From Eledone cirrhosa (lineage: Eukaryota), in contig OZ024741.1 in assembly GCA_964016885.1 (NCBI GenBank), forward strand, positions 363,816,001 to 363,880,000: a stretch of DNA of 64,000 bases, given 5' to 3'. The notes beneath the pieces are model-generated. The model made no database searches and was not told the origin of the DNA. It saw nothing but the letters and a program-made list of their open reading frames with translations. Of the stretch, positions 1-58,761 are shown piece by piece. The position numbers were made by a program, and so were the translations under genes. Within the stretch, counting starts at the first letter, position 1, and the number at the start of each line of letters is the position of its first letter.

Positions 1-8538
<8,538 letters not shown>

Positions 8539-8847
8539 TATATATATACATATACATATGTTGGTGCCACAACATCCAGGCCGAAACAAATGAGATCGTG
8601 TAGGTGTCACGTAAAAAAAAACACACAGTTCATGCTGTAATGTGGCCGTGTAGGCAACACGGTAAAAACCTCCCAGCCCCACACTGTAAATGTGGTTGGT
8701 GTTAGGAAGGGCATCCAGCTGTAGAAAACCTGCCAGATTGTCCTATGCGAGCAAGATAATCACTCTTGCCTCAAGTGGGAAAACCCCCGTCCAAAGCCAT
8801 GCAAGCGTGGAACACGGACGTTAAACGTTGATGATGATGATGATGAC
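8539..8847 (+). mobile_element. RTE-tail SINE or RTE 3' UTR with (ATG)n tail
   Basis: gttaggaagggcatccagctgtagaaa...aaacgttgatgatgatg; closely similar inverted copy at 35878-36168. Confidence 0.8.
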
Positions 8848-9029
8848 ATACATACATACACATATATATATGCCGTACTAAGAGTGAGAAACGAAATTTC
8901 GTTTCCTTCTATTCCATTTCTCGTTTTCGGTGTGCCCGGCCGACTGAACTCAGTCGATATGCAAGTTAGGCTGCTCAGCCGTTAATATGCATAAGGAAAG
9001 TATATACTTTCAGACATTCAACCATCTGG

Positions 9030-9088
9030 CAGGAAGGTATACGATGCTGACGATAGCTACCAAGCTTGAAACTAGTACATCGTTCCTG
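9030..9088 (+). ncRNA. Minimal type I hammerhead ribozyme
   Basis: Stem I ACGATG/CATCGT (extended by CAGGA/TCCTG across a bulge), core CTGACGA, stem II AGCT-acca-AGCT, GAAA, palindromic stem III ACTAGT, cleavage triplet GTA at 9075-9077. Confidence 0.8.
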
Positions 9089-9348
9089 TGTCAGTGTTGA
9101 ACAAAAAGGTGACGTGGTTGCCTAAACACTGTACGGCGTAATTCGGGCTCTTTGTTCGTTTACAAACAAACAAACCGAGCATTATAATAAATGTTCGGTA
9201 AACCGATACGTGCATATATATATGTGTGCATGTATGTATATATACATACTACTATACATCTGTATACATATATGTATGTACGTATACATACATTTAAGTA
9301 AGTGCCATACTAAGAGTGAGAAATGAAATTTCGTTTCATTCTATTCCA

Positions 9349-11408
<2,060 letters not shown>

Positions 11409-20111: not shown

Positions 20112-20218
20112 TCACAGTGCTTCCACATAGGTGGCAGGGTAGAGGCCTACTCGACCGTCTTTGCGCCCTTTGCACCACCCTAATTCATCAGGATCAGAAA
20201 GTTTAGTGAACATTTCAC
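20112..20218 (-). CDS. PACSIN: Syndapin/PACSIN terminal coding exon, C-terminal half of SH3 domain
   Basis: Minus strand ttttctag|GTGAAATG...TGA translates (G)[34 protein letters not shown], matching the PACSIN SH3 signature GWCKGR...VGLYPxxYVE. Its phase-1 start fits the upstream exon. Confidence 0.95.
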
Positions 20219-23971: not shown

Positions 23972-24267
23972 CTGCTTTAAAGGTCAGCTCATCTTGAGCT
24001 GTTGCGCTATAATCATATAAAGCGCGCACCGGCACACCTGGTCGGTTATCATCCACCAATGTTAAGTCTTCATCCCATTCTTCACTGTCGGGATCACCAA
24101 ACGGATTCTTACCATCAGCAGCTTTGTTGTTATCAACAGCAATAGTAGTAGGAGTAGTAGAATTGATAGTAGTAGAAGTAGTAGTAGTGGTGGTAGGAAG
24201 AGGAGCAACGTATGATGTTGAATCGGAGTTTGTTTGATCAGGGTTATGATTGTCAGCAGTCTCAGCA
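23972..24267 (-). CDS. PACSIN: Syndapin/PACSIN penultimate exon: Thr-rich linker, NPF motif, N-terminal half of SH3
   Basis: tttgcag|...|gtgagc, 296 nt, phase 2 to 1. Translates AETADNHNPDQ...TTTTT...DGKNPFGDPDSEEWDEDLTLVDDNRPGVPVRALYDYSATAQDELTFKA(G). Confidence 0.95.
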
Positions 24268-29130: not shown

Positions 29131-30067
29131 TCAATCAGAGAAATCAGATAAGGACTCGGTATCAACACTGCGAAAATAGCCGTCCATGGACTGATCTGTG
29201 TTGGATCTGTTTAAATTCGCATTGCTGCAGTATGATCCTTTTCGGTTATCTATATAGTGAGGCGATTGCAAATGACCTACAGGGCTCCTATTATTCATGT
29301 TCCTATTTGGAGAGGTCAGATTTCGGTTACCACCAATTCCTTTATTACCTCCAGCAGGTTTCCCAAGGATCATATCTCGAATTTCTTTGTCAAAGTTATC
29401 AGGTACTCCTCTATATTGGCTCTTTCTCACCTGGATTGGCGATGGAGAGCTGGGTCTTCTCTCTTCTATGTGAATTGTAGGCTGGCTTTGATTATTCAAT
29501 GGTCTTATCATTGGGTTAGGTGGGCCTGGAGACTGATGAGCGAAACTACCACGTCGATTTCCAGGACTTACTTTAAGTTCATTTATTACTGGTGGTCGTA
29601 TACCAGGTGGGCCCATGCCTGGTGGGCCCATGCCAGGCGGACCCATGCCAGGCGGACCCATGCCAGGCGGACCCATGCCAGGCGGACCCATGCCTGGCGG
29701 ACCCATGCCTGGCGGACCCATGCCTGGCGGACCCATGCCTGGCGGACCCATGCCTGGTGGACCCATGCCTGGTGGACCCATGCCTGGTGGGCCCATGCCT
29801 GGTGGACCCATGCCTGGTGGACCCATACCTGGTGGACCCATGCCTGGTGGGCTCATGCTAGTTGGACCAACACCTGGTGGTCTCATGCCAGGTCTTATGC
29901 CACCAGGTGGACCCATACCAGTTGGTCTAATGCCACGGGGGCTTGAACCCATGGGACGTGGATCCATTCCAAGTCTAGATTGTCCAACACCACGCCCTTG
30001 AGGAGTTGACTGAGTAGTTGGGCTGATTTTTATGCCAGCATTTGAAGGAGCTTTCAGATTAGGTGAG
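29131..30067 (-). CDS. PACSIN: Syndapin alternative exon encoding a Pro/Gly/Met-rich low-complexity region, ending in a stop if read through
   Basis: Pyrimidine tract + cactag acceptor at 30067, in phase 2 like the neighbouring exons. Open for ~310 codons (SPNLKAP...(GMGPP)16...ESLSDFSD*). Repeat variation is synonymous in this frame. Confidence 0.75.
29606..29845 (-). repeat. Coding 15-bp minisatellite, 16 units, (Gly-Met-Gly-Pro-Pro)16
   Basis: Units GGY ATG GGY CCR CCW read directly from the sequence. Confidence 0.95.
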
Positions 30068-32224: not shown

Positions 32225-32332
32225 TTTTTCTTTTGTGATGTGTCTTTCACCAAGTGTTTAGCATCACTATGTAAATCTTCATCATCAGATTCCTCTCCGA
32301 AAGGATTAAGGCTCTCATCGTAGCTCTCTTGC
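32225..32332 (-). CDS. PACSIN: Syndapin NPF-motif cassette exon (108 nt, phase 2-2)
   Basis: ttttatag|G CAA GAG...AAA AA|gtaatg. Translates QESYDESLNPFGEESDDEDLHSDAKHLVKDTSQKK, an NPF followed by acidic residues. Confidence 0.88.
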
Positions 32333-38142: not shown

Positions 38143-38310
38143 ATTTTTTGTTCGGTTGCAACAGCAGTGTTATTTTGATCAGTTGCAACAACAGTAGTGA
38201 TCTTTTGCTCAGTTGGAACAGTGATCGCTTGTTTCTCTTTGCTATCTGCTGGATCCATGCCTGACTCATCATCAAAAGGATTCAGTTTGTCATCATACTG
38301 TGGCTCTTCC
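38143..38310 (-). CDS. PACSIN: Syndapin NPF-motif cassette exon (168 nt, phase 2-2)
   Basis: ttttttag|G GAA GAG...AAA AT|gtaatg. Translates EEPQYDDKLNPFDDESGMDPADSKEKQAITVPTEQKITTVVATDQNNTAVATEQK. Confidence 0.88.
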
Positions 38311-45101: not shown

Positions 45102-45269
45102 CTGCCAAAAGGATTTTTATCAATAGCTTGTAGACCACATATTGTTTGAGCAGACAAAGACTCAGATATCTTAATCATGGTATTTGTGGCATGACTTGTC
45201 CACCTTCCAGTGAAAGATTTTGATAAGTTGACAACATAAGAAAGCTTTGATTTCACACTGTTAGTAAAT
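45102..45269 (-). CDS. Candidate syndapin NPF cassette exon (168 nt, phase 2-2)
   Basis: tattttcacag|A TTT ACT...AAT CCT TTT GGC AG|gtttga. Open in the required phase and ends ...QAIDKNPFG; the donor is weak. Confidence 0.5.
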
Positions 45270-46902: not shown

Positions 46903-48256
46903 ATAACATTTAAACATTTGAGTGGAAGAGTAGCCATAAATGACTCAGTGTAAATAATGAGAAATACACACACACACACATATATATATATAGTTCAAGA
47001 ATAAACAAGACAAACACATACATGAAGAAATCCAAAGTCTTATTAGTTTCATACTTGGGAAGTATATATAATATACATACACACACACACATATATCTAT
47101 ACACACACACACATTCACATATAAATGTGTGTGCATATATACATATATATATATATATGTACACATATATATTGCATGTAAGTGTTGTTTTGGTCCTGCA
47201 ACATGAAGTAATAAAATATTTGTGAGGCAACAAATAAATATATTTTAAACAAGAAAAATAACAATAACAGAAAAAATGCGACAGTATTATCAAATGGAAT
47301 AAAAAAATAAATTAAAAAGGGTAAAAAAAAAGGGGGGGGGGGGGGATTCAAATAAATTCAGACATGAAAATAAACTTACTTTTGGTAATTTGATCCTGTT
47401 GGAGGTTGGTCTGAATTGGGAGTATAACTAGGTTCACGGGAATGCTTGATACCTGTTATTATGATACCTTCATTTGAGCCGAATGCTTGCTTTTTTGTTT
47501 TGGTGATATTGTGTAATTCTGGTGAATATTCCTAAGAAAAATAAAATAAAATAAATATTACATGTACCACAGCATGGCCACAGTCTAATAACTGAAACCA
47601 ATAAAAGTGTAAAAAAAAAAATAATAGAAAGGGATCCAAAGCAGCGCCTGGTGATATTTTCCTTATTACCACAGACTTCTGGGATAGAGCTGATCATCAG
47701 ATCAAACAAAAAGAAACAGTGTTTCAACTGATGGTCGCAATTTCTGGCAGAAGAATTTGAACTTAGAACACATAGAAGTTATCAAGTGTTTGATAAGACT
47801 AAAGAGTTCTCCCTACCCTATATTGTCTTCATTTGATCACTAGACACATTACAGAGTGTAATGAGTGTATTTTATCATGGCACCAGCACTACAACGGTTG
47901 TCAATATATATTTAATTTTGTTTTCATTTGTCACAATTGATGAGCAATAGTTTCATTGATTTTTAACTGACGAATCACTGGTTCATTGAGAGTGACAAGA
48001 AATTGCTTAACTCAGCAGAACAAAAACACAAGATATTTTTTATTGAAAAGCATCAGATTTTTTAGTTTCCTTACCAATGTTTACAGCATTCACCAGTATA
48101 CATTAGCAAAAAATATATACATATATGCATCTGACTGTAAAATATTGCCTCAATTAAGACTGCACATATATATATATATGTGTGTGTGTGTGTATTTCTC
48201 ATTATTTACACTGAGTCATTTATGGCTACTCTTCCACTCAAATGTTTAAATGTTAT
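46903..48256. repeat. Perfect 90-bp inverted repeat pair (46903-46992 / 48167-48256) flanking a syndapin exon
   Basis: Arms are exact reverse complements, including a (CA)7 tract; the ORF track shows the same peptide on opposite strands. Confidence 0.95.
47380..47531 (-). CDS. PACSIN: Syndapin post-F-BAR exon (152 nt, phase 0-2)
   Basis: ttttcttag|GAA TAT...CAA AA|gtaagt. Translates EYSPELHNITKTKKQAFGSNEGIIITGIKHSREPSYTPNSDQPPTGSNYQ, resembling the PACSIN segment after WPQFE (EW/Y...KKK...GVTLTGI). Confidence 0.9.
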
Positions 48257-48786
48257 AAAGTCTATTAAGGTACTTATAAAGCTAACCCCTGCTTTAACAG
48301 GAAAGATAGCCTTAAAATGTGAGTGTGTGTATTGTATTAAGAGAGAACAAAATTTTCTTTGTTGTTCTTAATACAAATACTCTGCAAATTACATCAATAA
48401 CAAACTGATGCTACTGCAAATATACACATTCAACACGGAACTATTCACGTAATAGCATTGAGTGCTTAAACTGGTGGCACCCATAGCAATAAAATATTAG
48501 CAAAACTCCATCACTATGCTGTTGGTAAATGCTAATACAAATGCTAGTTTAGGGGCTCATTCTTAGCTAAGAACTTCCCTTGCAGTTGTCTCATTAGGAA
48601 AATATATCCTGGGTTGGTTTTGTATTGTGTAGCTAGTTTAGGCTTGTTGTAGTTAGTTGTTGGGTAGGACTGTATAAAGAAAAGTTACACACATACACAC
48701 ACACACAATGGACTCCTGCAAAAATATTGTGTGAGTGGTTACAAAGCAAATTTTTTAATCACACTATCATAGTATATATATATATA

Positions 48787-51350
48787 TCATCCTCATTACC
48801 ATTTATTGTTGATTTTCCATGCTAGCTTGAATTACATGGGCTGTCACATACTGAGGTTAGACTAGTCAGGTGACTATGTCTTACTTGTATGCTCTGTTTT
48901 TATGGCTAGATGTCCTTCCTATCACCAACCATTTTATCATGAGTCTGCCAATATCTTATAAGACGGACTAGGTGCTTTTTGTCATGGCACCAGCACTATG
49001 ACTTTACAGAGTGGGCTGGGTGCATTTTATCATGGCAACAGTAATACATCATTACAACTTGTTAGGTTGGGAAGGCAATCATGGGAAAGGAAGCACTGGA
49101 ACATGGGAATAAACTCGAAGCAAGTAGGAGATATCTGTGTTGCTTCTTTGGGTTTAAGGTGGGCAAAAGTGGACGGGTCACAAGCATACTGAGTGGTGGG
49201 GGCCATTTTCTCCATGTTAGTTTTATCCTACTTGCGTGGAAAGTTGAGTCTTCTCCAGTATGGCATGTCACCAGTTAATTTGATCTCAGGTCATCTGCTT
49301 CATGAAGTTTATCTGTGTGAGGTCAGCCTTCACCACATCATCTTAATTTTTCCTAGATCATCTCATTTCATAGGTTCCATTGCCTCCGATACTCTACATT
49401 TGTTTTTATAGCTGTCATCCTCCATTCACATCACATATACATACCAACACAGTCCCCTCTCCTGTGCACTGTATCCGATCCCTCTATGTCCAGTTCTCTC
49501 AGCTCATTGATGCCTTGTCATTCAGGTATACTGCTACTACACATCCATCAGAGCATGCTCACCTAATTTCTTTCCAATTTTCATAATGTCTCTGCACACA
49601 AGCATCATACAATCTGCCTTTCACTCTGGCCATTGTAGCCAGCCAAGGTAGTAGTTCCATTTGGCTACTTTGCTTTTAGAACTCTCACTTCCTTTGCTAA
49701 TTTGGTCTCCCATATAGGAGAAACTAGCAACTGTCTCTAGGGAGCCATCTGAGCATTTGATAGGGCTTGTTTCATGCAAGTCCTTGTTCATTGTCTCACA
49801 CAAAGCCTACCTTCTTTACCTGAGATCCAACTACATCTCTTGTCTACCCATAGTTTACATTTTGTACATAAGATGAAATTTCTATCTACTCCATTCCTGC
49901 ATTTTTCTTTCTTCATGTCTGAAATTCTTCACTAATTTTGCCATGCACTCAACTATGAGAACAAGATCATCAACATATAGGAGTTCCCATGGACAGTCTT
50001 AAAATCCTCTATTATGGCTTGGAGGACAACAATAAACAGAAAGGGGCTGAGAACAGAGCCCCGGTGGACCACCACCTGCATAGTAAATTCGTCACTATAT
50101 TCATTGTTAATTCTAATCTTGCTAACAGCACCTCTTTATATGTACCACCATTTCAAGCCATTTCTCTACCCTTAGTTTCATAAGAGCCCATCAGATTATT
50201 GAGCAAGGAACCCTGTCAAAAGTCTTTTCCAGATCAACACATTCCAGGTAGAAGGGCTTACCTGTGAGTAGCTGTCTCACAAGGAAAAGACACCTGTGAA
50301 ACTTCTATCAGGCACAAAATCAAACTGCATCTCATCTATGTTAATTCTATCTCTAATTATTTGTGCAATAACTCTTTCAATAACTTTCATGACCTAATCC
50401 ATCAACTTGATGCTTCTATAGTTCCTCTGTTCAGTTCATCTCCCTTGAACTTTTAGCCATTGATGGTGATGCTGCCAGTCATTCTCTATTACTCAACTAT
50501 ACACTCAGTTGGTGAAAACATCTAATATGAAAGGATACATACTGTGTATATAGTTGAGTAATAGAGAACTCAGCAACTATTCCTGATGGGCCTGCTGCTT
50601 AGCTTGCATTCATATATTTAATTGCTTTACCTACAATACTGTTGCTAACTTGGATTGGTTCCTTTGTTGTGCCAGCTTGTGGCAGACCCTCTTTTAACAG
50701 TGTCCCATAATGACACTTCCATGCTTCTCAGCAGCAGAGGGGACAAATGCAACACTGCCATTTCAGATGCACTTCTCTCTAGCACACTACCGTGCAATCC
50801 TGAACACTCCACACCTTTAGCCCTCATAACACCAAACATGTGCAAACTTCTTATTTTCTACTTCTATCCTTGTTAATTATACCTGGTGCTTAGCTTCTTA
50901 ATATTGTTCCCTGCTTACTCCTTTTAGCCAGTCTTTCCATACCCATTTCTTTGTTTTGATCACTTCATCCAGCCTTCTATTCCACCACCATCTCATCCTT
51001 CATCACCTTGGTGCCTTGCACTAGTCAGATGTCTTATCTGTAGCCTTCAGTAGATTATCTTGCAGGAGCCTCCATTGTTCTTCTATACTGCCAGTCTCTC
51101 ATTCATCTTCCTTAAACTTCCCAGTCCCTGATTGTTACATATCCAGAAAAATTAGTATCACTGTCTTGTCTGTGAGGACTCTGGTTGAACCTCCTCTCCA
51201 TCTAATCTCTTGTATGCAACATTCATTTACTTTCTCACATTCTACAATCTCACCTGTTCTCCCTTTCATCATTCCAACTTTGTTTCATAAAGTTTTGGAG
51301 ATCACAGAAAGTAGGAGGATTAGTATTGGCCAGAGAAATGACATTTAAGA
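48787..51350 (-). mobile_element. Degenerate RTE LINE, ~2.5 kb
   Basis: Minus-strand remnants HRGSVLSPFLFI and CPWELLYVDDLVLI near 49960-50070, LETVASFSYMGDQI near 49700; multiple stops and frameshifts; same 3' UTR family as 5678-6637. Confidence 0.85.
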
Positions 51351-52537
51351 TTGGGAACCAGTCAAGTGAGTGAATCAAGCTTTCTCCAGGAAACGTGGTG
51401 GAGGAGGTGAGTTAAGCACTCTTAACATAAGTAAATATATTTCGTAAAACATTGATTTTCATATACATAATCTATTGTCTTAACTGAGTAAATATATTTC
51501 ATATATATATACACACACAATCTAACAACAACAACAACTTAGCAGAAGTTAATATTTTATGAACAGAAGCCACCATATTTCATAGAAATTAATAAATTTC
51601 AAACAAATTGCATTAAGTACATGAAGAAAATTTAGTGGAACTGTTAATGTGCAAAAGGAAAGACTGCACTAGTATGGATATATGATGCAGTTTTTAAGGT
51701 GTTTGTGCATGTATATTGGAGGCCTGTTTTCTTAGTTTCAAATGTGACCACTAAGTGTTACTTTTTTCTATAATTCATGAACCTGAGAATGACTCTTCAG
51801 ACATGTCAGTGAGTGGCACATTTTGTTGCTAATCTGGCAATGCTACTCAGTTGCATTTATCAGAATGATGTTTGAGTATTTTAATATTCCTGCATATTTA
51901 TGCTGAAGAGTCATCTAGTGTTGGTAATTTACATGATAAACACACCCTTATACTCTATAAAGTGGTTAGTGATAGGAAGGGCATCCAGTCATAGAAAACC
52001 TGCCAAACAAAGGGTTGGGAGGACTTTTCAGTTATGTTAAAAACACGACAACCTCCCTAGTATTGGTGTCATGATAAAATGCACCCAGCAAGGAGCAGGA
52101 TTGTTTGCATGAGAGTTGCAGTTCATTACTGGTACTTTATTTTATTGACCCCTTAAGGATGAAAGGCAAAGTTAACCTCAACAGGATTTGAACTCAGACC
52201 GTAAGGGATGTAACTATGCTAGAAAGCATGGCATCCAACCCTCTACCAATACTGCCAATTCACCTGATTATGCATATGGCTCTTGAAACCATCCAGAAAA
52301 AGACAAACTCTTCCACTCATATTGCACATATATTAAATAGTGTTACAAGGTGGAAGAACTTGCTCTCCTTTTTAAACCAAGCACTTGTATGCAGCATACC
52401 AAGAATGATTTTTTTTTTTTCAAAATATTTGAGTTCTTACATCTATGCTCTTTCTTCAACTTCTATCTTCTGCAAAACATTACCAACCATCTAGAGAAAA
52501 CTAACACTGAGGTAGGATTTTAGTCACTATACTTGAG

Positions 52538-52569
<32 letters not shown>

Positions 52570-55077
52570 CAGATCTGATGGCATACATATACTCACACAT
52601 GAAAGAGAAAGAGAAAGAGATTTTTATGCAGTTTATCCATGAAAGAGTTAAGTCAAAGTAAACTTAGAGCTAATGCGATGAAGGCTTAGAGAGTTAAACT
52701 ACACAAAAACAAGGACAGTTATGACAGCTAATACAGAGATGAAGATTAGAATCTCTGTAAACTCATCTACCACATAGTAGAATGAAGGGGGAAAACAAAA
52801 CAAAAAATAGTATCAAACTTGTATCAAATATTCATATGATTAAAATTTTTATGGCTATTAAACTAATCATTAGAGGTGAAGTTAATAGTCTTAAAATGAT
52901 AAGGGTATTAGCATTTCAGATATTTAGAGATTAAATCAAAATGATAATGGTGTTTAACACCTCATCTCTGCATGTCATAAGAACTGACTAAAAGGGTTAG
53001 TGTCAAGGAAGGGTATCTGGCTGTAAAACATTGCTTCAAAAAGCCCAGTCTAACTCATACCATCATGGAAAAGTGGCTTTAAAAATGATGATGATGATGT
53101 TGATACCAACCTGTCTGAATCTGGCCCTAATTTTATGATACAAAACTCATTTTAATCTAAATTAAAATTTTCCATTATAATTTTATGTAAGAACCTTTTG
53201 TTAAGTAATATTCCAAACATCAGCTTAATAATGAGAAAGTTAAGTTACTAAATTCCTTCAAATTGATTATTATTACAGAATAAGCCATCACAAATGATAT
53301 TAAGTGCACAGTTAGAAGCCCAAATATATTTATTAGTAAAAAATATGGCACTTGAAGATAATTGAAAAACCTTCTATGATAGTATATAGAAACAATAGTA
53401 CAGAGAACATTAATACAATGTTAAGTGTTAATATCATGGTGTATAATAACAAAAAAAGTAATGAAATATAACTAATAATCATCAGAAATCTTTATTATTT
53501 TTTCCATTAACCTTTTTCTTATCAAACCACCTGGAACTGCCTCCATTTTCTACAATACAAAACTGTTTGTTTTAAAGTGTTTATATCTATATAAAAGCCT
53601 TTAATCATAATTTTATGGAAGAAACTAAGTTATGCTAAAAAAAATCAGCTTAGTAATGATAAAATTAGTTGTTACTAAATCTCTTCAAATATTTTGAAAA
53701 TGATTTGAAAATCGAAGGCAGTATTTTTCATGGGATAGGTGGTAATGAAAAGGTTCTGAGTATGTATGGACTTGTAATTCCTGGTGGAGTCGTAGGTATG
53801 CTTTTGTGACATATGGGCATTTGACACCTGGTGGAGCCCACCCCTCTCCAGGTCTAAACACAGCCAATTTCTCCTAAAGGAGATAGAATGAGACATAGAT
53901 ATAGAGGAAGAATTGACCCAAAGCTGAACTAGTATTTTTCTTATTGACCTTAAAAGTATGAAAGGTAAAGTTGACCTTGATGAGATTTGAACTCAGAATG
54001 TAGAGAGCCAGAATGAATAATGCAAAGCATCTTGATGTTCTAATGACTGCCAATTCACTGCCTTAATGAAAGGGTTATTAATAATAACAAAATGTCTTAA
54101 ATGCTGAAACACTGATACCTTATAATAAAGAGCTGAAGAACTGATATATAAATAGAAAGAATGTTCAAAATTCAAAATTAAATTAATAAAAAAAAAGTTA
54201 GTCATTTTTCAATATAAAACTGATTTTATTGCAGTTAGGTACAAATAACAATGGTATGCATTGGTTTACAAAGAAAAGTACAATAAATAGAATAAATATT
54301 GCTTAAAACTACATTCAATAAATATACTGTATGAAGCTGTATGAGGAAATGAGTTTCAACTCTTTGGAAATTACCTCATGCCTTCTCTCACTCTTTCATT
54401 CACACACATACCAAACCATTTGAAACTGGCCCTGGTTCTATTAAACTAAGCTGTTTGTTTAAAGTGTTTATATTAATTTGAAAAAAAATCTATCATAGTT
54501 TCATATATAAACTTTTATGTTATGCTCCAAACACCATAATGAGAATTCTTTATTTAAAAAAAATAAACTGAAAATAATAGGCATTTTTCATTAGGAATAT
54601 TGTAACAAAAGTGCTAAACATACACTAAACAAATGCATACACTATTGAGAATCAATTTCTCTCTAAGTATAAACATTTTTCTCTTTCAATTGATATTCTG
54701 GGAGTGATTGTAGCAGAGTGTCTGTGTGAAAAAGTTGTTAACCATTGGTATAACAATAAACTAATGTAAGCTAAGTCAAGAGGACAATACATAATTAATA
54801 AATTACAGCTCACAACATTGAAATGACATTCAACCATATTTTCACTTTTCATGTATATTATCCCTTGATTAACTAGTGAAAAGAAAAGCTGCCTTGGTGC
54901 CATTGCAAAACAGTAGATTACAGAACATTATATCTTTGGTTTAAGGAGGTGTATAATATTCATGATACTTATTTGAATACATATGCAAATAAATGTAAAC
55001 ATTATAAATTGTACTTGATCCTTGAAATACTAAATTGTCTCTGATTGTATAATAAAATTATTTATTTTAATGTGTAT

Positions 55078-55425
55078 ATCATCATCATCATCATCATTTC
55101 ATTTGACGTCCGTTTTTTCCCTGCTTGCAAGGGTGGGACGGGAACTGATTCTGGCTTGATTTCTACAGCTGGATGCCCTTCCTAACACCAACCTCATTTA
55201 CAGTGAGTGCTGGGTGCTTTTTTGCCGTGGCACCTGCACGACCACTTTGCAGTGGAATGATATGGACCCCAATCCCTATCATCTCATTTCTACAACTGAG
55301 TAAACTGGAGCAATGTGAAATAAAGTGTCTTGCTCAAGGAAACAACACATCACCCGGTCTGAGAATTGAACTCACAACCTTTCGATTGCAAGGCCAATGC
55401 TCTAACCACTAAGCCATGTGCCTCC
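55078..55425 (-). mobile_element. RTE-tail fragment followed by a tRNA-derived SINE
   Basis: 55078-55250 matches 5678-5900; 55260-55425 has a tRNA-like head on the minus strand (tggcttagtggttagagcattgg...gagttcaattc). Confidence 0.75.
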
Positions 55426-58400
55426 ATATATATTTATCTAAAAATCTTCCATGATAATTTTATGTAAGAATCTTTAAGTTACTCTAAAAAGGAAGGAAGT
55501 CAATTATCAGTTTGTACCAAGGAAGCAATATTTTGATTGGCCTTTCCATTGATGATACTCTAAACACTAGCTTAATAATTAGAAAGTTGTATTACTAAAT
55601 CCCTTCAAATTCTTGATTATTTTCAAGCTGGTTTAAAAATCAGTGTCTTTTATTAGAAATATAGTTACAAAAGGATTAACAGATTTTAAATATGAATCAG
55701 ATAAGGTGCAAAATGTGAAGATCATAAGAACACTATCTTCTTTCCAGCTACATGAATATATATATATGCCTACATGATACAGGTTCTCAGAAAATAGCTC
55801 ATCACAAAAGGAGCTAACACTTGAGACCTTTTAATTCAAAATTAGTGAAGTCATAGACCCAAGTATTTTGTTTTATATAGTGTGCTTAAATATTAAAAAA
55901 AACTAAAATATTATCTTAAGAATAAGCCTGTAAACTTGAAATATATGAACAAAGAAATAAACTGTGTCAATTCTTTAGAAATACAGATTCACAGTATCTA
56001 ACATTATCAGAGGATAATAAATAATGGTTTTAAGTAGAAAATATGTCTGAAATGTGAAAATATTGCCTACTTCAAATCTTTCTATCAAATAAGGGCATAG
56101 TAACAATAATTGTTTTTACTATTTCTACTTACAGCTCTAGAACCAAATTATATCAACTTTCTTCTCATTAACATTCAGTAAACCCAAAAGTGTAATTTTC
56201 CACCTAAATCATTATCCTATCACTTAAAAAAATTAAAATTGATGAACAATTATACACAACAATTAAGCCAGCCCTACTTGAACACACATACACACACTCA
56301 CATACATACACAGGCAAACATACATTTAGTATTGGTGAATGTGAGAACAAATATTCAATACTATAGCAGAGATTAAGAGTTAATTAGGACTGATTCAGTG
56401 ATCTGTTACTCTAGAGTTTTCCTGTGTACTCTCAATTCTACAAACAATTGTCCACAAATGTGTGGTGAACCTTTAACTGGCAGGGCAAACTCTAAAGTAA
56501 CAGTATAAGTCTATATACACATACTAGAAAACTTGATTTGATTTTGTAATTAAAAATGTGAATTAACAAACTAAACTTTTCATTTACAACTTAAATAAAT
56601 ATATAGCTTTATCAATTTACAAAGAATAGAATTTTAATTAGTAAAACGTTTGATGTACTTAAACTTTATAAATAACATCAAGTATGATTCATTATGGTAA
56701 AATATTAACGCACACACATACATGTCAAGTTTACAACCATAAATGTTTTATTAGTTTATAAAAATCTACTCAACCTCATTATAAATACATTTTATATTAA
56801 AAAAAAAGTGCATATCCTGTACACAAAGGCACTTGTTTGTAAAAGGTATATAAATATGCTTTTAATGAGCAATTTAACAAATATTATATTGATTTTTGGC
56901 ATAGGCACAAATTTGGTATTAATTAGAACATAGTTGATCACATCAACCCAGTATTTAACTGGTAATTGCATTTTATCCACCCCATAAGGATGAAAGGCAA
57001 AGTTGGCCCTGGCAAGAATTGAACTCAGAACAAAATGAGATAACTAAATACCACAAAGCATTTTCTCCACACCTTTCCTAATTTTGCCAAATAATATATT
57101 AACTATAAACCAAACTAAAATTAATCAGATCTGAATAGTTTAAGAATTTGGACTCATTTCAAAATATAAATAAAACTCTTCATAGAACATCACAAAAACA
57201 ACAAAAAACAGGATGACAACAAAATGTCGGTTATGCAATCACATAAACCTCCAAGTTCATATTGTGTTTAAACATATCAATTAGGAAATCTAATAAAATA
57301 AAATGCTGAACTTTTGTATAAAACCAAGTATATTCATATATTGACTAAGAATGGAATGTTCAGATATCAGTAAACAGAGTAAGGAATGTCATAAGCTAGG
57401 TCTTTGATATGAAATGCTTTTATGACTGAAACACAATTTTCTAAGATATTAAAGCTTGATTGTAAATACCAGTAGAATCTTGGAATGCTTTGAAAGTTAA
57501 CACGCTATTTTTTGGCAATGGTAAATACATGATATAAATATCGATGAGACTTTGGAATGCTTTGGCAGTTACCAAACCATTTTTCAGCAATGCTAGATAA
57601 ATGGTTTAAATTGGCATTTTCCCTTGTTTCCTATGTACTGTATTAAAAATTATGATTAACTTGAATAAGCAACAATTTTACAAAAAATATATGTTCTGGC
57701 AGTGAATTTAAGTATATACATAATTTATTTAATATAATTCAATTCTTATATATATAACAATAAAGCATAAAAAAGTAACCAAAAATTAAAAAGGTAAGGT
57801 AATTGCTAGTTTTTAGATAATATTATACAGGATTAAAAAATTTACCAACATTAAAATGAATCAACTACTCAGATAAATACAATATATTTAAATGTTTTTC
57901 TAAATTAAATGAGATTTCCAGAAAATAAAACCTAACATCAATTACATAATCACAATCATCACATACCTTACAGATAGAAAATCAATACTTATATCCTTTA
58001 TAATACAGAATAAATCTGAAAACTTAACGTTAATTATATATATATATCATTGTCATCATATAATTATATTTGAGATGTAGTTGTCACAATGTAAATGACT
58101 ATAGAGAACAAAGGTGTGTGTCCACTTTTTTCCCACCTCCAGAGGTATTTACTCAATTCCCTCTATTATTTATAGTGATTGATTATCATTATAGTCATTT
58201 ATATTGAGATGCCTACATTCAAAAATTCAAAGTTTCCCAACGTTTCTTAAGGCAACTGGATGTTCACATATATATCATAAGGGATCTTTTAACTAAGATA
58301 CAAAACAAAGACAAAACAGATCTACATGATAACAACAGCTGGGTAAAAAGTTAGCAATGTTTTCTTTCTTTCTTTCATCAGATTTATTCCAATATCTCCA

Positions 58401-58507
58401 AGCAAACTGTCCAGTTCACAGTTAGTTTCATAGGCAGCACCAGGCAATTAGTGAAACAAAAAGTTTGTACAAGATTTCCCACACTAGTATTTCCATGAAA
58501 GACTCAC

Positions 58508-58530
58508 TGAATTTCTTCTGGATGGTATTC
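58508..58530 (-). CDS. Candidate 23-nt alternative post-F-BAR microexon (EYHPEEI), or start of a short terminal exon EYHPEEIQ*
   Basis: gtttttcacttcag|GAATACCATCCAGAAGAAATTCA|gtgagt. Strong splice sites, same phases (0-2) and same E-Y-x-P-E start as exon 47380-47531. Confidence 0.55.
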
Positions 58531-58761
58531 CTGAAGTGAAAAACAGAATGTATGTCACTCCTCAGAGAATAAGTCCTCAAGAAATCAGTGCAGTTTTTGA
58601 GACAGATTTGCTTATGAATGAAACTCATTTCCATTGAGTTTTTTTACTCTGATAAAAAGTTCCTTCAATAAATAATTCCAATTTACTTGCTTACAGCCTG
58701 AGTGACAACACTAATTTCTCTCTCTTCCTCACTCTCAAACAAAGAACTAGAGCCTGAAATG

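What the first reader, a model, noticed from the sequence alone, without database searches (positions are those of the whole stretch)
47380..58530. Possible mutually exclusive pair: 23-nt EYHPEEI microexon versus 152-nt EYSPELH exon
Seen: both begin GAA TAY NNN CCA GAA, both are phase 0-2 and both have strong splice sites; including both would frameshift. Inference: duplicated exons used exclusively, possibly enforced by the inverted repeat hiding the 152-nt exon. If the donor is ignored the frame reads EYHPEEIQ*, giving an F-BAR-only protein.
Basis: partly seen in the sequence, partly recalled or inferred. Interest (0 to 1): 0.7.

Follow-up and report, generated by a model that had tools for sequence, protein, structure and literature searches.

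The report
Possible stub exon in octopus syndapin
An octopus gene for the membrane-shaping protein syndapin holds, in one intron, a 23-base look-alike of the start of the next exon with good splice signals; it likely lets cells drop a predicted phosphorylation-controlled stretch without breaking the protein, but no transcript or related species was found that uses it.

Summary
Observation confirmed. On the minus strand of a PACSIN/syndapin gene, 58530-58508 (23 nt, EYHPEEI) and 47531-47380 (152 nt, EYSPELH...) share GAA TAY NNN CCA GAA and phase 0-2. The 152-nt exon is the ordinary exon after the F-BAR domain: 15 of 15 cephalopod proteins use it, and an RNA-like contig holds it spliced. The 23-mer is more than local chance: its acceptor ranks 6 of 1284 AGs in the intron, and the pattern occurs 14 times in 3 Gb, twice here. 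But its use is unseen: 0 of 123 mostly mollusc proteins show it. Best reading (0.38): a truncated duplicate that keeps the last ordered F-BAR residues (EYxPE) and replaces the long exon in frame, dropping 43 residues that include the match to PACSIN2's PKC site S313; exclusivity would rest on frameshift and decay. A barnacle has an annotated skip form with the same effect. The 90-nt inverted repeat is real but weak support: such repeats sit in 17 of 60 control stretches, and a perfect repeat looks much younger than the exon pair. EYHPEEIQ* follows automatically from a phase-2 GTGA donor.

The parts
58508..58530 (-). candidate 23-nt stub exon (EYHPEEI + 2 nt), phase 0-2, unannotated, use not seen
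   Evidence: single copy in genome; DNA contigs cross it with 0 differences
58531..58560 (-). acceptor of the stub: 14 of 16 pyrimidines, nearest upstream AG at -29, branch-like TGAC with A at -25
   Evidence: the branch point is an inference from sequence
58502..58507 (-). donor GTGAGT in phase 2; read-through gives Q then the stop TGA
   Evidence: 4 of 1276 AGs in the intron have such a GTRAGT donor in open phase 2 within 150 nt; 84 of 1276 under a looser donor rule
58383..58388 (-). AATAAA 120 nt after the donor, possible poly(A) signal of a terminal form; weak, background 1.5 per kb
47380..47531 (-). 152-nt exon, the conserved exon after the F-BAR (EYSPELHNITK...), phase 0-2; holds the region aligned to PACSIN2 S313
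   Evidence: (X4 record 25)
48167..48256 (.). upstream arm of a perfect 90-nt inverted repeat, 635 nt before the acceptor; about 60 nt unique plus CA/TA microsatellite
46903..46992 (.). downstream arm of the inverted repeat, 387 nt after the donor
38143..38310 (-). 168-nt cassette exon with NPF motif (phase 2-2), present in annotated Octopus isoforms
32225..32332 (-). 108-nt exon with NPF motif (phase 2-2), internal or terminal in annotated isoforms
29131..30067 (-). long GMGPP-repeat exon ending in a stop (SH3-less form; also annotated in Octopus)
23972..24267 (-). 296-nt exon: linker, NPF, start of SH3
20112..20218 (-). last coding exon, end of SH3

Best explanation
The 23-nt element is likely a truncated duplicate of the start of the 152-nt syndapin exon that would be spliced in its place in some cells, keeping the five residues predicted to finish the ordered F-BAR domain while dropping 43 linker residues that include the likely PKC site. 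Shown: the 152-nt exon cannot be skipped in frame (phase 0-2); the stub has the same phases and restores the frame to every real downstream exon; using both or neither gives an early stop. Inferred: origin by partial duplication, actual splicing, removal of double or empty forms by nonsense-mediated decay, and the effect on the protein (a shorter linker without the basic I-T-K-T-K-K stretch, so membrane binding no longer switched off by phosphorylation there).
For: Acceptor rank 6 of 1284 and chance of about 4e-6 per AG for the five-residue match; 14 pattern matches in 3 Gb, two at this locus, so about 5e-5 expected in this intron (counts may be lower bounds); best of 16 exon-end controls. The kept residues are the family's commonest at positions 1, 2, 4, 5 after WPxFE: E 67, Y 63, P 40, E 43 of 90 (the 90 include 15 redundant cephalopod rows), with a silent change in the Tyr codon and no likeness in the flanks. 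AlphaFold of an Argonauta orthologue: mean pLDDT 79 for residues 291-300 (EYSPE is 296-300), 52 for 301-310, below 50 from 308; several crystal constructs end at or just past EY/EW. Human PACSIN2 S313 aligns into the dropped part and its phosphorylation by PKC lowers membrane binding and tubulation (PMC4832444, passages). Barnacle isoforms X1/X2 differ by loss of the homologous 37 residues, the skip form continuing with DYNP; a wasp X2 continues with DYLP. Frames.
Against: No protein shows the stub: 0 of 15 cephalopod proteins that reach the junction and 0 of 123 mostly mollusc proteins. Similarity covers only 5 codons; Ser at position 3 is kept in 121 of 123 of those proteins but is His in the stub, and the hydrophobic sixth residue is lost. 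The donor is middling. No UGC lies in the last 20 nt before the acceptor, a motif I recall for neural microexons. The pattern was chosen after seeing it, and a scan of a whole genome can turn up a few such look-alikes. Rat syndapin II has a 2-residue splice variant at about this junction with no detectable effect (PMC2174535, passages).
Confidence: 0.38

Rival explanations
1. Dead remnant: an old partial duplicate of the exon start that is no longer spliced at a meaningful level.
For: Absent from 15 of 15 cephalopod and 123 of 123 mostly mollusc proteins; main RNA-like contig uses the long exon; S-to-H change at a near-invariant mollusc position.
Against: A neutral remnant should decay evenly, yet the match is confined to the four family-conserved codons plus intact acceptor and in-phase donor, with unrelated flanks; the parent exon has no donor at base 23, so the donor had to arise.
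Confidence: 0.27
2. Chance look-alike with no common origin.
For: Only five codons are alike; post hoc pattern; 12 other matches exist in the genome; about 3e5 exon ends genome-wide could yield a few such cases (my estimate).
Against: About 5e-5 expected in this intron, 2.4e-5 among the top six acceptors, and an in-phase donor on top (4 to 84 of 1276); none of 15 other exon-end controls comes close.
Confidence: 0.13
3. Alternative last exon: the acceptor is used, the donor ignored, giving F-BAR + EYHPEEIQ and a stop, a membrane-tubulating form without the inhibitory SH3 domain.
For: AATAAA 120 nt downstream followed by a GT-rich run; this gene already has annotated SH3-less forms that stop by reading through phase-2 donors (P0010, P0002, P0014); 7 distant relatives end 2-8 residues after WPxFE (completeness not checked); SH3 inhibits the F-BAR in pacsin-1 (PMC3517540, passages).
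Against: AATAAA occurs 1.5 times per kb here; a purely terminal exon would not need GTGAGT in the parent's phase; the stop is a by-product of the donor sequence.
Confidence: 0.11
4. Poison exon: the stub is included together with the 152-nt exon, shifting the frame and sending the message to decay to lower syndapin levels.
For: 23 nt is not a multiple of three; joint inclusion stops after 31 residues; such exons are lowly visible and often unannotated (PMC10789245, passages).
Against: Does not explain why EYxPE is kept or why the donor matches the parent's phase.
Confidence: 0.11

Closest known systems
Tandem duplicated exon substitution / mutually exclusive homologous exons (PMC9741552 passages; PMC5740500 passages and section 7)
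   Same: Two same-phase exons in tandem with homologous starts; lengths not divisible by three, as in 377 of 629 human clusters (PMC5740500), so joint inclusion frameshifts.
   Different: Lengths 23 against 152 nt; homology over 5 codons only; the swap would delete a region rather than exchange a similar one. It falls outside the prediction rules of PMC5740500 (at least 10 aa, at most 60 nt difference). Use of both not shown.
Arthropod syndapin skip isoforms (Amphibalanus X1/X2, XP_043192374 and XP_043192389; Leptopilina X2)
   Same: The homologous post-F-BAR segment is lost and the F-BAR end is followed by a second [DE]-Y-x-P start.
   Different: There it looks like plain in-frame skipping with the motif at the head of the next exon (inferred from protein differences, genes not seen); here the exon is phase 0-2 and would need a separate upstream stub.
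Vertebrate PACSIN2/syndapin II splice variants (PMC2174535 passages; PDB 4bne)
   Same: Alternative splicing at about the same F-BAR/linker junction (residues 303-304) and NPF-bearing cassettes downstream.
   Different: A two-residue addition that keeps the S313 region, reported to have no detectable effect.
Exons looped out by paired intron sequences, BRD2 exon 3b / BRD3 exon 5b (PMC10789245 passages)
   Same: Complementary arms flank an exon.
   Different: Those arms are conserved and tested; these are perfect, conservation untested, of a kind common in this genome, and flank the exon that the main transcript includes.

Membership tests
PACSIN/syndapin gene | F-BAR domain, NPF linker, C-terminal SH3, orthologous sequence | tested here: met
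   FCH match 45 kb upstream; all exons mapped by tblastn with cephalopod PACSINs
Tandem duplicated mutually exclusive exons | Same reading frame and phase at both ends | tested here: met
Tandem duplicated mutually exclusive exons | Homologous sequence | tested here: inconclusive
   4 of first 5 residues, beyond local chance, but nothing further
Tandem duplicated mutually exclusive exons | Similar length (within 60 nt, at least 10 aa, as in PMC5740500) | tested here: not met
   23 against 152 nt; 7 residues
Tandem duplicated mutually exclusive exons | Each exon seen spliced, never together | tested here: inconclusive
   long exon seen; stub seen in no protein; raw RNA reads not available
Tandem duplicated mutually exclusive exons | Conserved in related species | not testable with these tools
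   no other cephalopod genome held; protein sets show no such isoform
RNA-structure-controlled exon choice | Complementary arms able to pair around the exon | tested here: met
   90 nt, 100%, duplex -146.6 kcal/mol, loop 1174 nt
RNA-structure-controlled exon choice | Arms stand out from background and are conserved with compensatory changes | tested here: inconclusive
   do not stand out: 17 of 60 control stretches hold perfect repeats of 90 nt or more; conservation not testable
Neural microexon (eMIC/SRRM4 type; features recalled) | Length up to 27 nt, frame-preserving, UGC close to the acceptor | tested here: not met
   length fits, but not a multiple of three and nearest TGC at -62

The most novel reading that the evidence does not exclude
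Octopods made a non-skippable exon skippable by copying only its structural first five codons into a 23-nt stub with the same phases; splicing the stub yields a syndapin that lacks its PKC-controlled basic stretch, converging on the skip isoform that arthropods reach by another route.
Probability: 0.35. Interest if true: 0.55.

Novelty: new variant of a known kind. Interest (0 to 1): 0.36.

Why it matters
If used, it is a class of duplicated exon that standard predictors miss by design (too short, too unequal): a stub that acts as an in-frame deletion device. It would give a clean natural test of what the conserved post-F-BAR segment and its phosphorylation site do for syndapin, a protein of synaptic vesicle recycling and caveolae, and would mark that segment as a repeatedly evolved splice switch (arthropods, octopods). 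If not used, it is an intronic curiosity in an ordinary gene.

Tried and rejected
No RNA holder listed by the run search. X4, found with the 152-nt exon and behaving like RNA, has no cover at 58220-58755: no evidence either way. In one search no joint at the stub was among the 15 rows shown; 3287 were not shown. Degenerate stub pattern in metagenome contigs: 0; related loci there: 1 distant transcript-like contig at 46% identity, not examined further. Earlier notes: nothing near, by sequence, by relatives or by words. The first splice-site model was overfitted and replaced (by 37). A bacterial promoter scan was irrelevant. Rejected: inverted repeat as transposon ends (2 matches in the genome, the arms themselves) or as assembly error (DNA contigs of three runs of one sample break 30 nt inside each arm, as two real copies would cause); steric exclusion (10,976 nt between the exons); a second copy of the 152-nt exon elsewhere. 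Literature: 'syndapin'+'microexon' 0 papers; searches listed nothing on this exon in titles or abstract starts; a cross-species splicing preprint with Octopus bimaculoides does not mention pacsin or syndapin in its main text, and its supplements, which could list the exon, were not seen.

Full report
Gene. The window is G000:C2:363816001-363880000. It carries the 3' half of a PACSIN/syndapin gene on the minus strand. The F-BAR exons lie upstream; I fetched 60 kb and mapped all exons with cephalopod orthologues. The last F-BAR exon (L001:6989-6869) ends WPAFE in phase 0 and is 100% identical in protein to Argonauta and 95% to Octopus, so the animal is an octopod.

Observation. Both elements are as described. 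The stub lies 12.3 kb after the F-BAR donor and 11.0 kb before the 152-nt exon. Either one alone reads through to the SH3 end with every real downstream exon tested; both together stop after 31 residues; neither stops within 1-5 residues. The candidate at 45269 is in none of 15 cephalopod proteins and has a weak acceptor (1.3).

The 152-nt exon is the ordinary one. All 15 cephalopod proteins that reach the junction use it (16 listed, one a 67-aa fragment). Of 140 mostly mollusc proteins, 123 hold the junction: 81 EYSPE, 40 EYSPD, 1 EYAPD, 1 unrelated continuation, none EYHPE. Only 18 clusters of that set were opened, and two large oyster clusters were listed 15 of 27 and 15 of 56. Run X4 has one 1195-nt contig that covers the exon and leaves the genome at both ends, as a spliced message would; I read it as unbranched at the F-BAR end. 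Contigs drop rare forms, so this shows only that the long exon is the main form there.

Is the stub chance? With a smoothed model its acceptor ranks 6 of 1284 AGs in the intron and lies in the range of the gene's true acceptors; the donor is middling. The five-residue match has a probability of 4e-6 per AG; windows of 3, 4, 6 and 7 residues give weaker values (3e-3, 8e-5, 4e-5, 3e-4), so the five-residue window is the most favourable. The pattern has 14 matches in the genome (control 4), two of them here, about 5e-5 expected per intron of this size; my composition estimate is about three times higher. Among 16 exon-end controls in this gene it is the only one with 4 of 5 identities. A correction of 200 for choice of exon, end and window leaves about 0.01-0.03 before counting the in-phase donor (4 to 84 of 1276 AGs). 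Across a whole-genome scan a few such cases could still arise by chance (inference).

What it would do. The residues kept are the commonest of the family at positions 1, 2, 4 and 5 after WPxFE. In an AlphaFold model of the Argonauta protein, confidence is 79 for residues 291-300, 52 for 301-310 and under 50 from 308, so EYSPE is predicted to be the last ordered piece of the F-BAR; only ten-residue means were available. The part dropped aligns with human PACSIN2 around S313, whose phosphorylation by PKC lowers membrane binding and tubulation (PMC4832444, passages); that the octopus threonine is phosphorylated is inferred. A barnacle has annotated isoforms that differ by the homologous 37 residues and resume with DYNP, and a wasp isoform resumes with DYLP. 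That shows animals tolerate and annotate such a form. In the octopod the exon is phase 0-2 and cannot be skipped, which gives a reason for a same-phase stub. Against this, Ser at position 3 is kept in 121 of 123 mostly mollusc proteins and the stub has His.

The inverted repeat. The arms are real, unique in the genome and able to pair. But perfect inverted repeats are common here: 27 of 60 control stretches hold one of 50 nt or more and 17 of 60 one of 90 nt or more, and 2.8% of control bases lie between arms of that size (many are parts of larger fold-back elements). Perfect identity including microsatellite lengths points to a recent event, unlike the exon starts (13 of 23 identical). It may still modulate inclusion today, but it is unlikely to be what established the pair (inference). 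Exclusion by frameshift and decay needs no extra part, and 377 of 629 human clusters have such lengths (PMC5740500, section 7).

The terminal reading. Any phase-2 donor starting GTGA or GTAA reads through to a stop, so EYHPEEIQ* adds no evidence. The gene does have annotated SH3-less forms made that way at other exons, and an AATAAA lies 120 nt downstream against a background of 1.5 per kb, so it stays a rival.

Comparison and verdict. It would work like a tandem duplicated exon substitution (PMC9741552, passages) but fails the length feature and lacks shown use, so I do not file it as a member. Nine paper searches listed no report of it; a human PACSIN2 microexon is mentioned without position (10.64898/2026.05.13.725022, passages); PMC9285741 (passages) describes only long and short PACSIN2 forms. 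Supplements were not examined. About even odds that the acceptor is used at all; 0.38 for the in-frame substitute. Interest 0.36.

Noticed in passing
window 38143-38310 and 32225-32332 (-): The two NPF cassette exons resemble each other (EEPQYDDKLNPF / QESYDESLNPF) and share the donor context GTAATGATAG; likely an older duplication. Annotated isoforms use either, both, or the second as a last exon.
   Followed up: partly
window 29131-30067 (-): Long exon with about 19 GMGPP repeats ending in a stop; in O. bimaculoides (P0016) the same exon splices on to the SH3 exons, but the matching donor is absent here.
   Followed up: partly
window 45102-45269 (-): Open phase 2-2 stretch of 168 nt ending in NPFG with a possible donor (also one at 45204); weak acceptor, in no annotated isoform.
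   Followed up: partly
control stretches L008-L067: Perfect local inverted repeats are very common in this genome: 91 segments of 50 nt or more in 27 of 60 stretches, some fold-backs over 1 kb long (L015, L030, L051).
   Followed up: partly
P0236/P0308 and P0019: Arthropod syndapins have a skip isoform lacking the post-F-BAR segment and resuming with a second [DE]-Y-x-P motif.
   Followed up: partly
P0102, P0110, P0125, P0129, P0132, P0154, P0157: Distant syndapin relatives that end 2-8 residues after WPxFE, possibly natural F-BAR-only proteins; source and completeness unchecked.
   Followed up: no
window 1-11400: Very long TA-rich microsatellite tracts with a 200-base gap of N.
   Followed up: no
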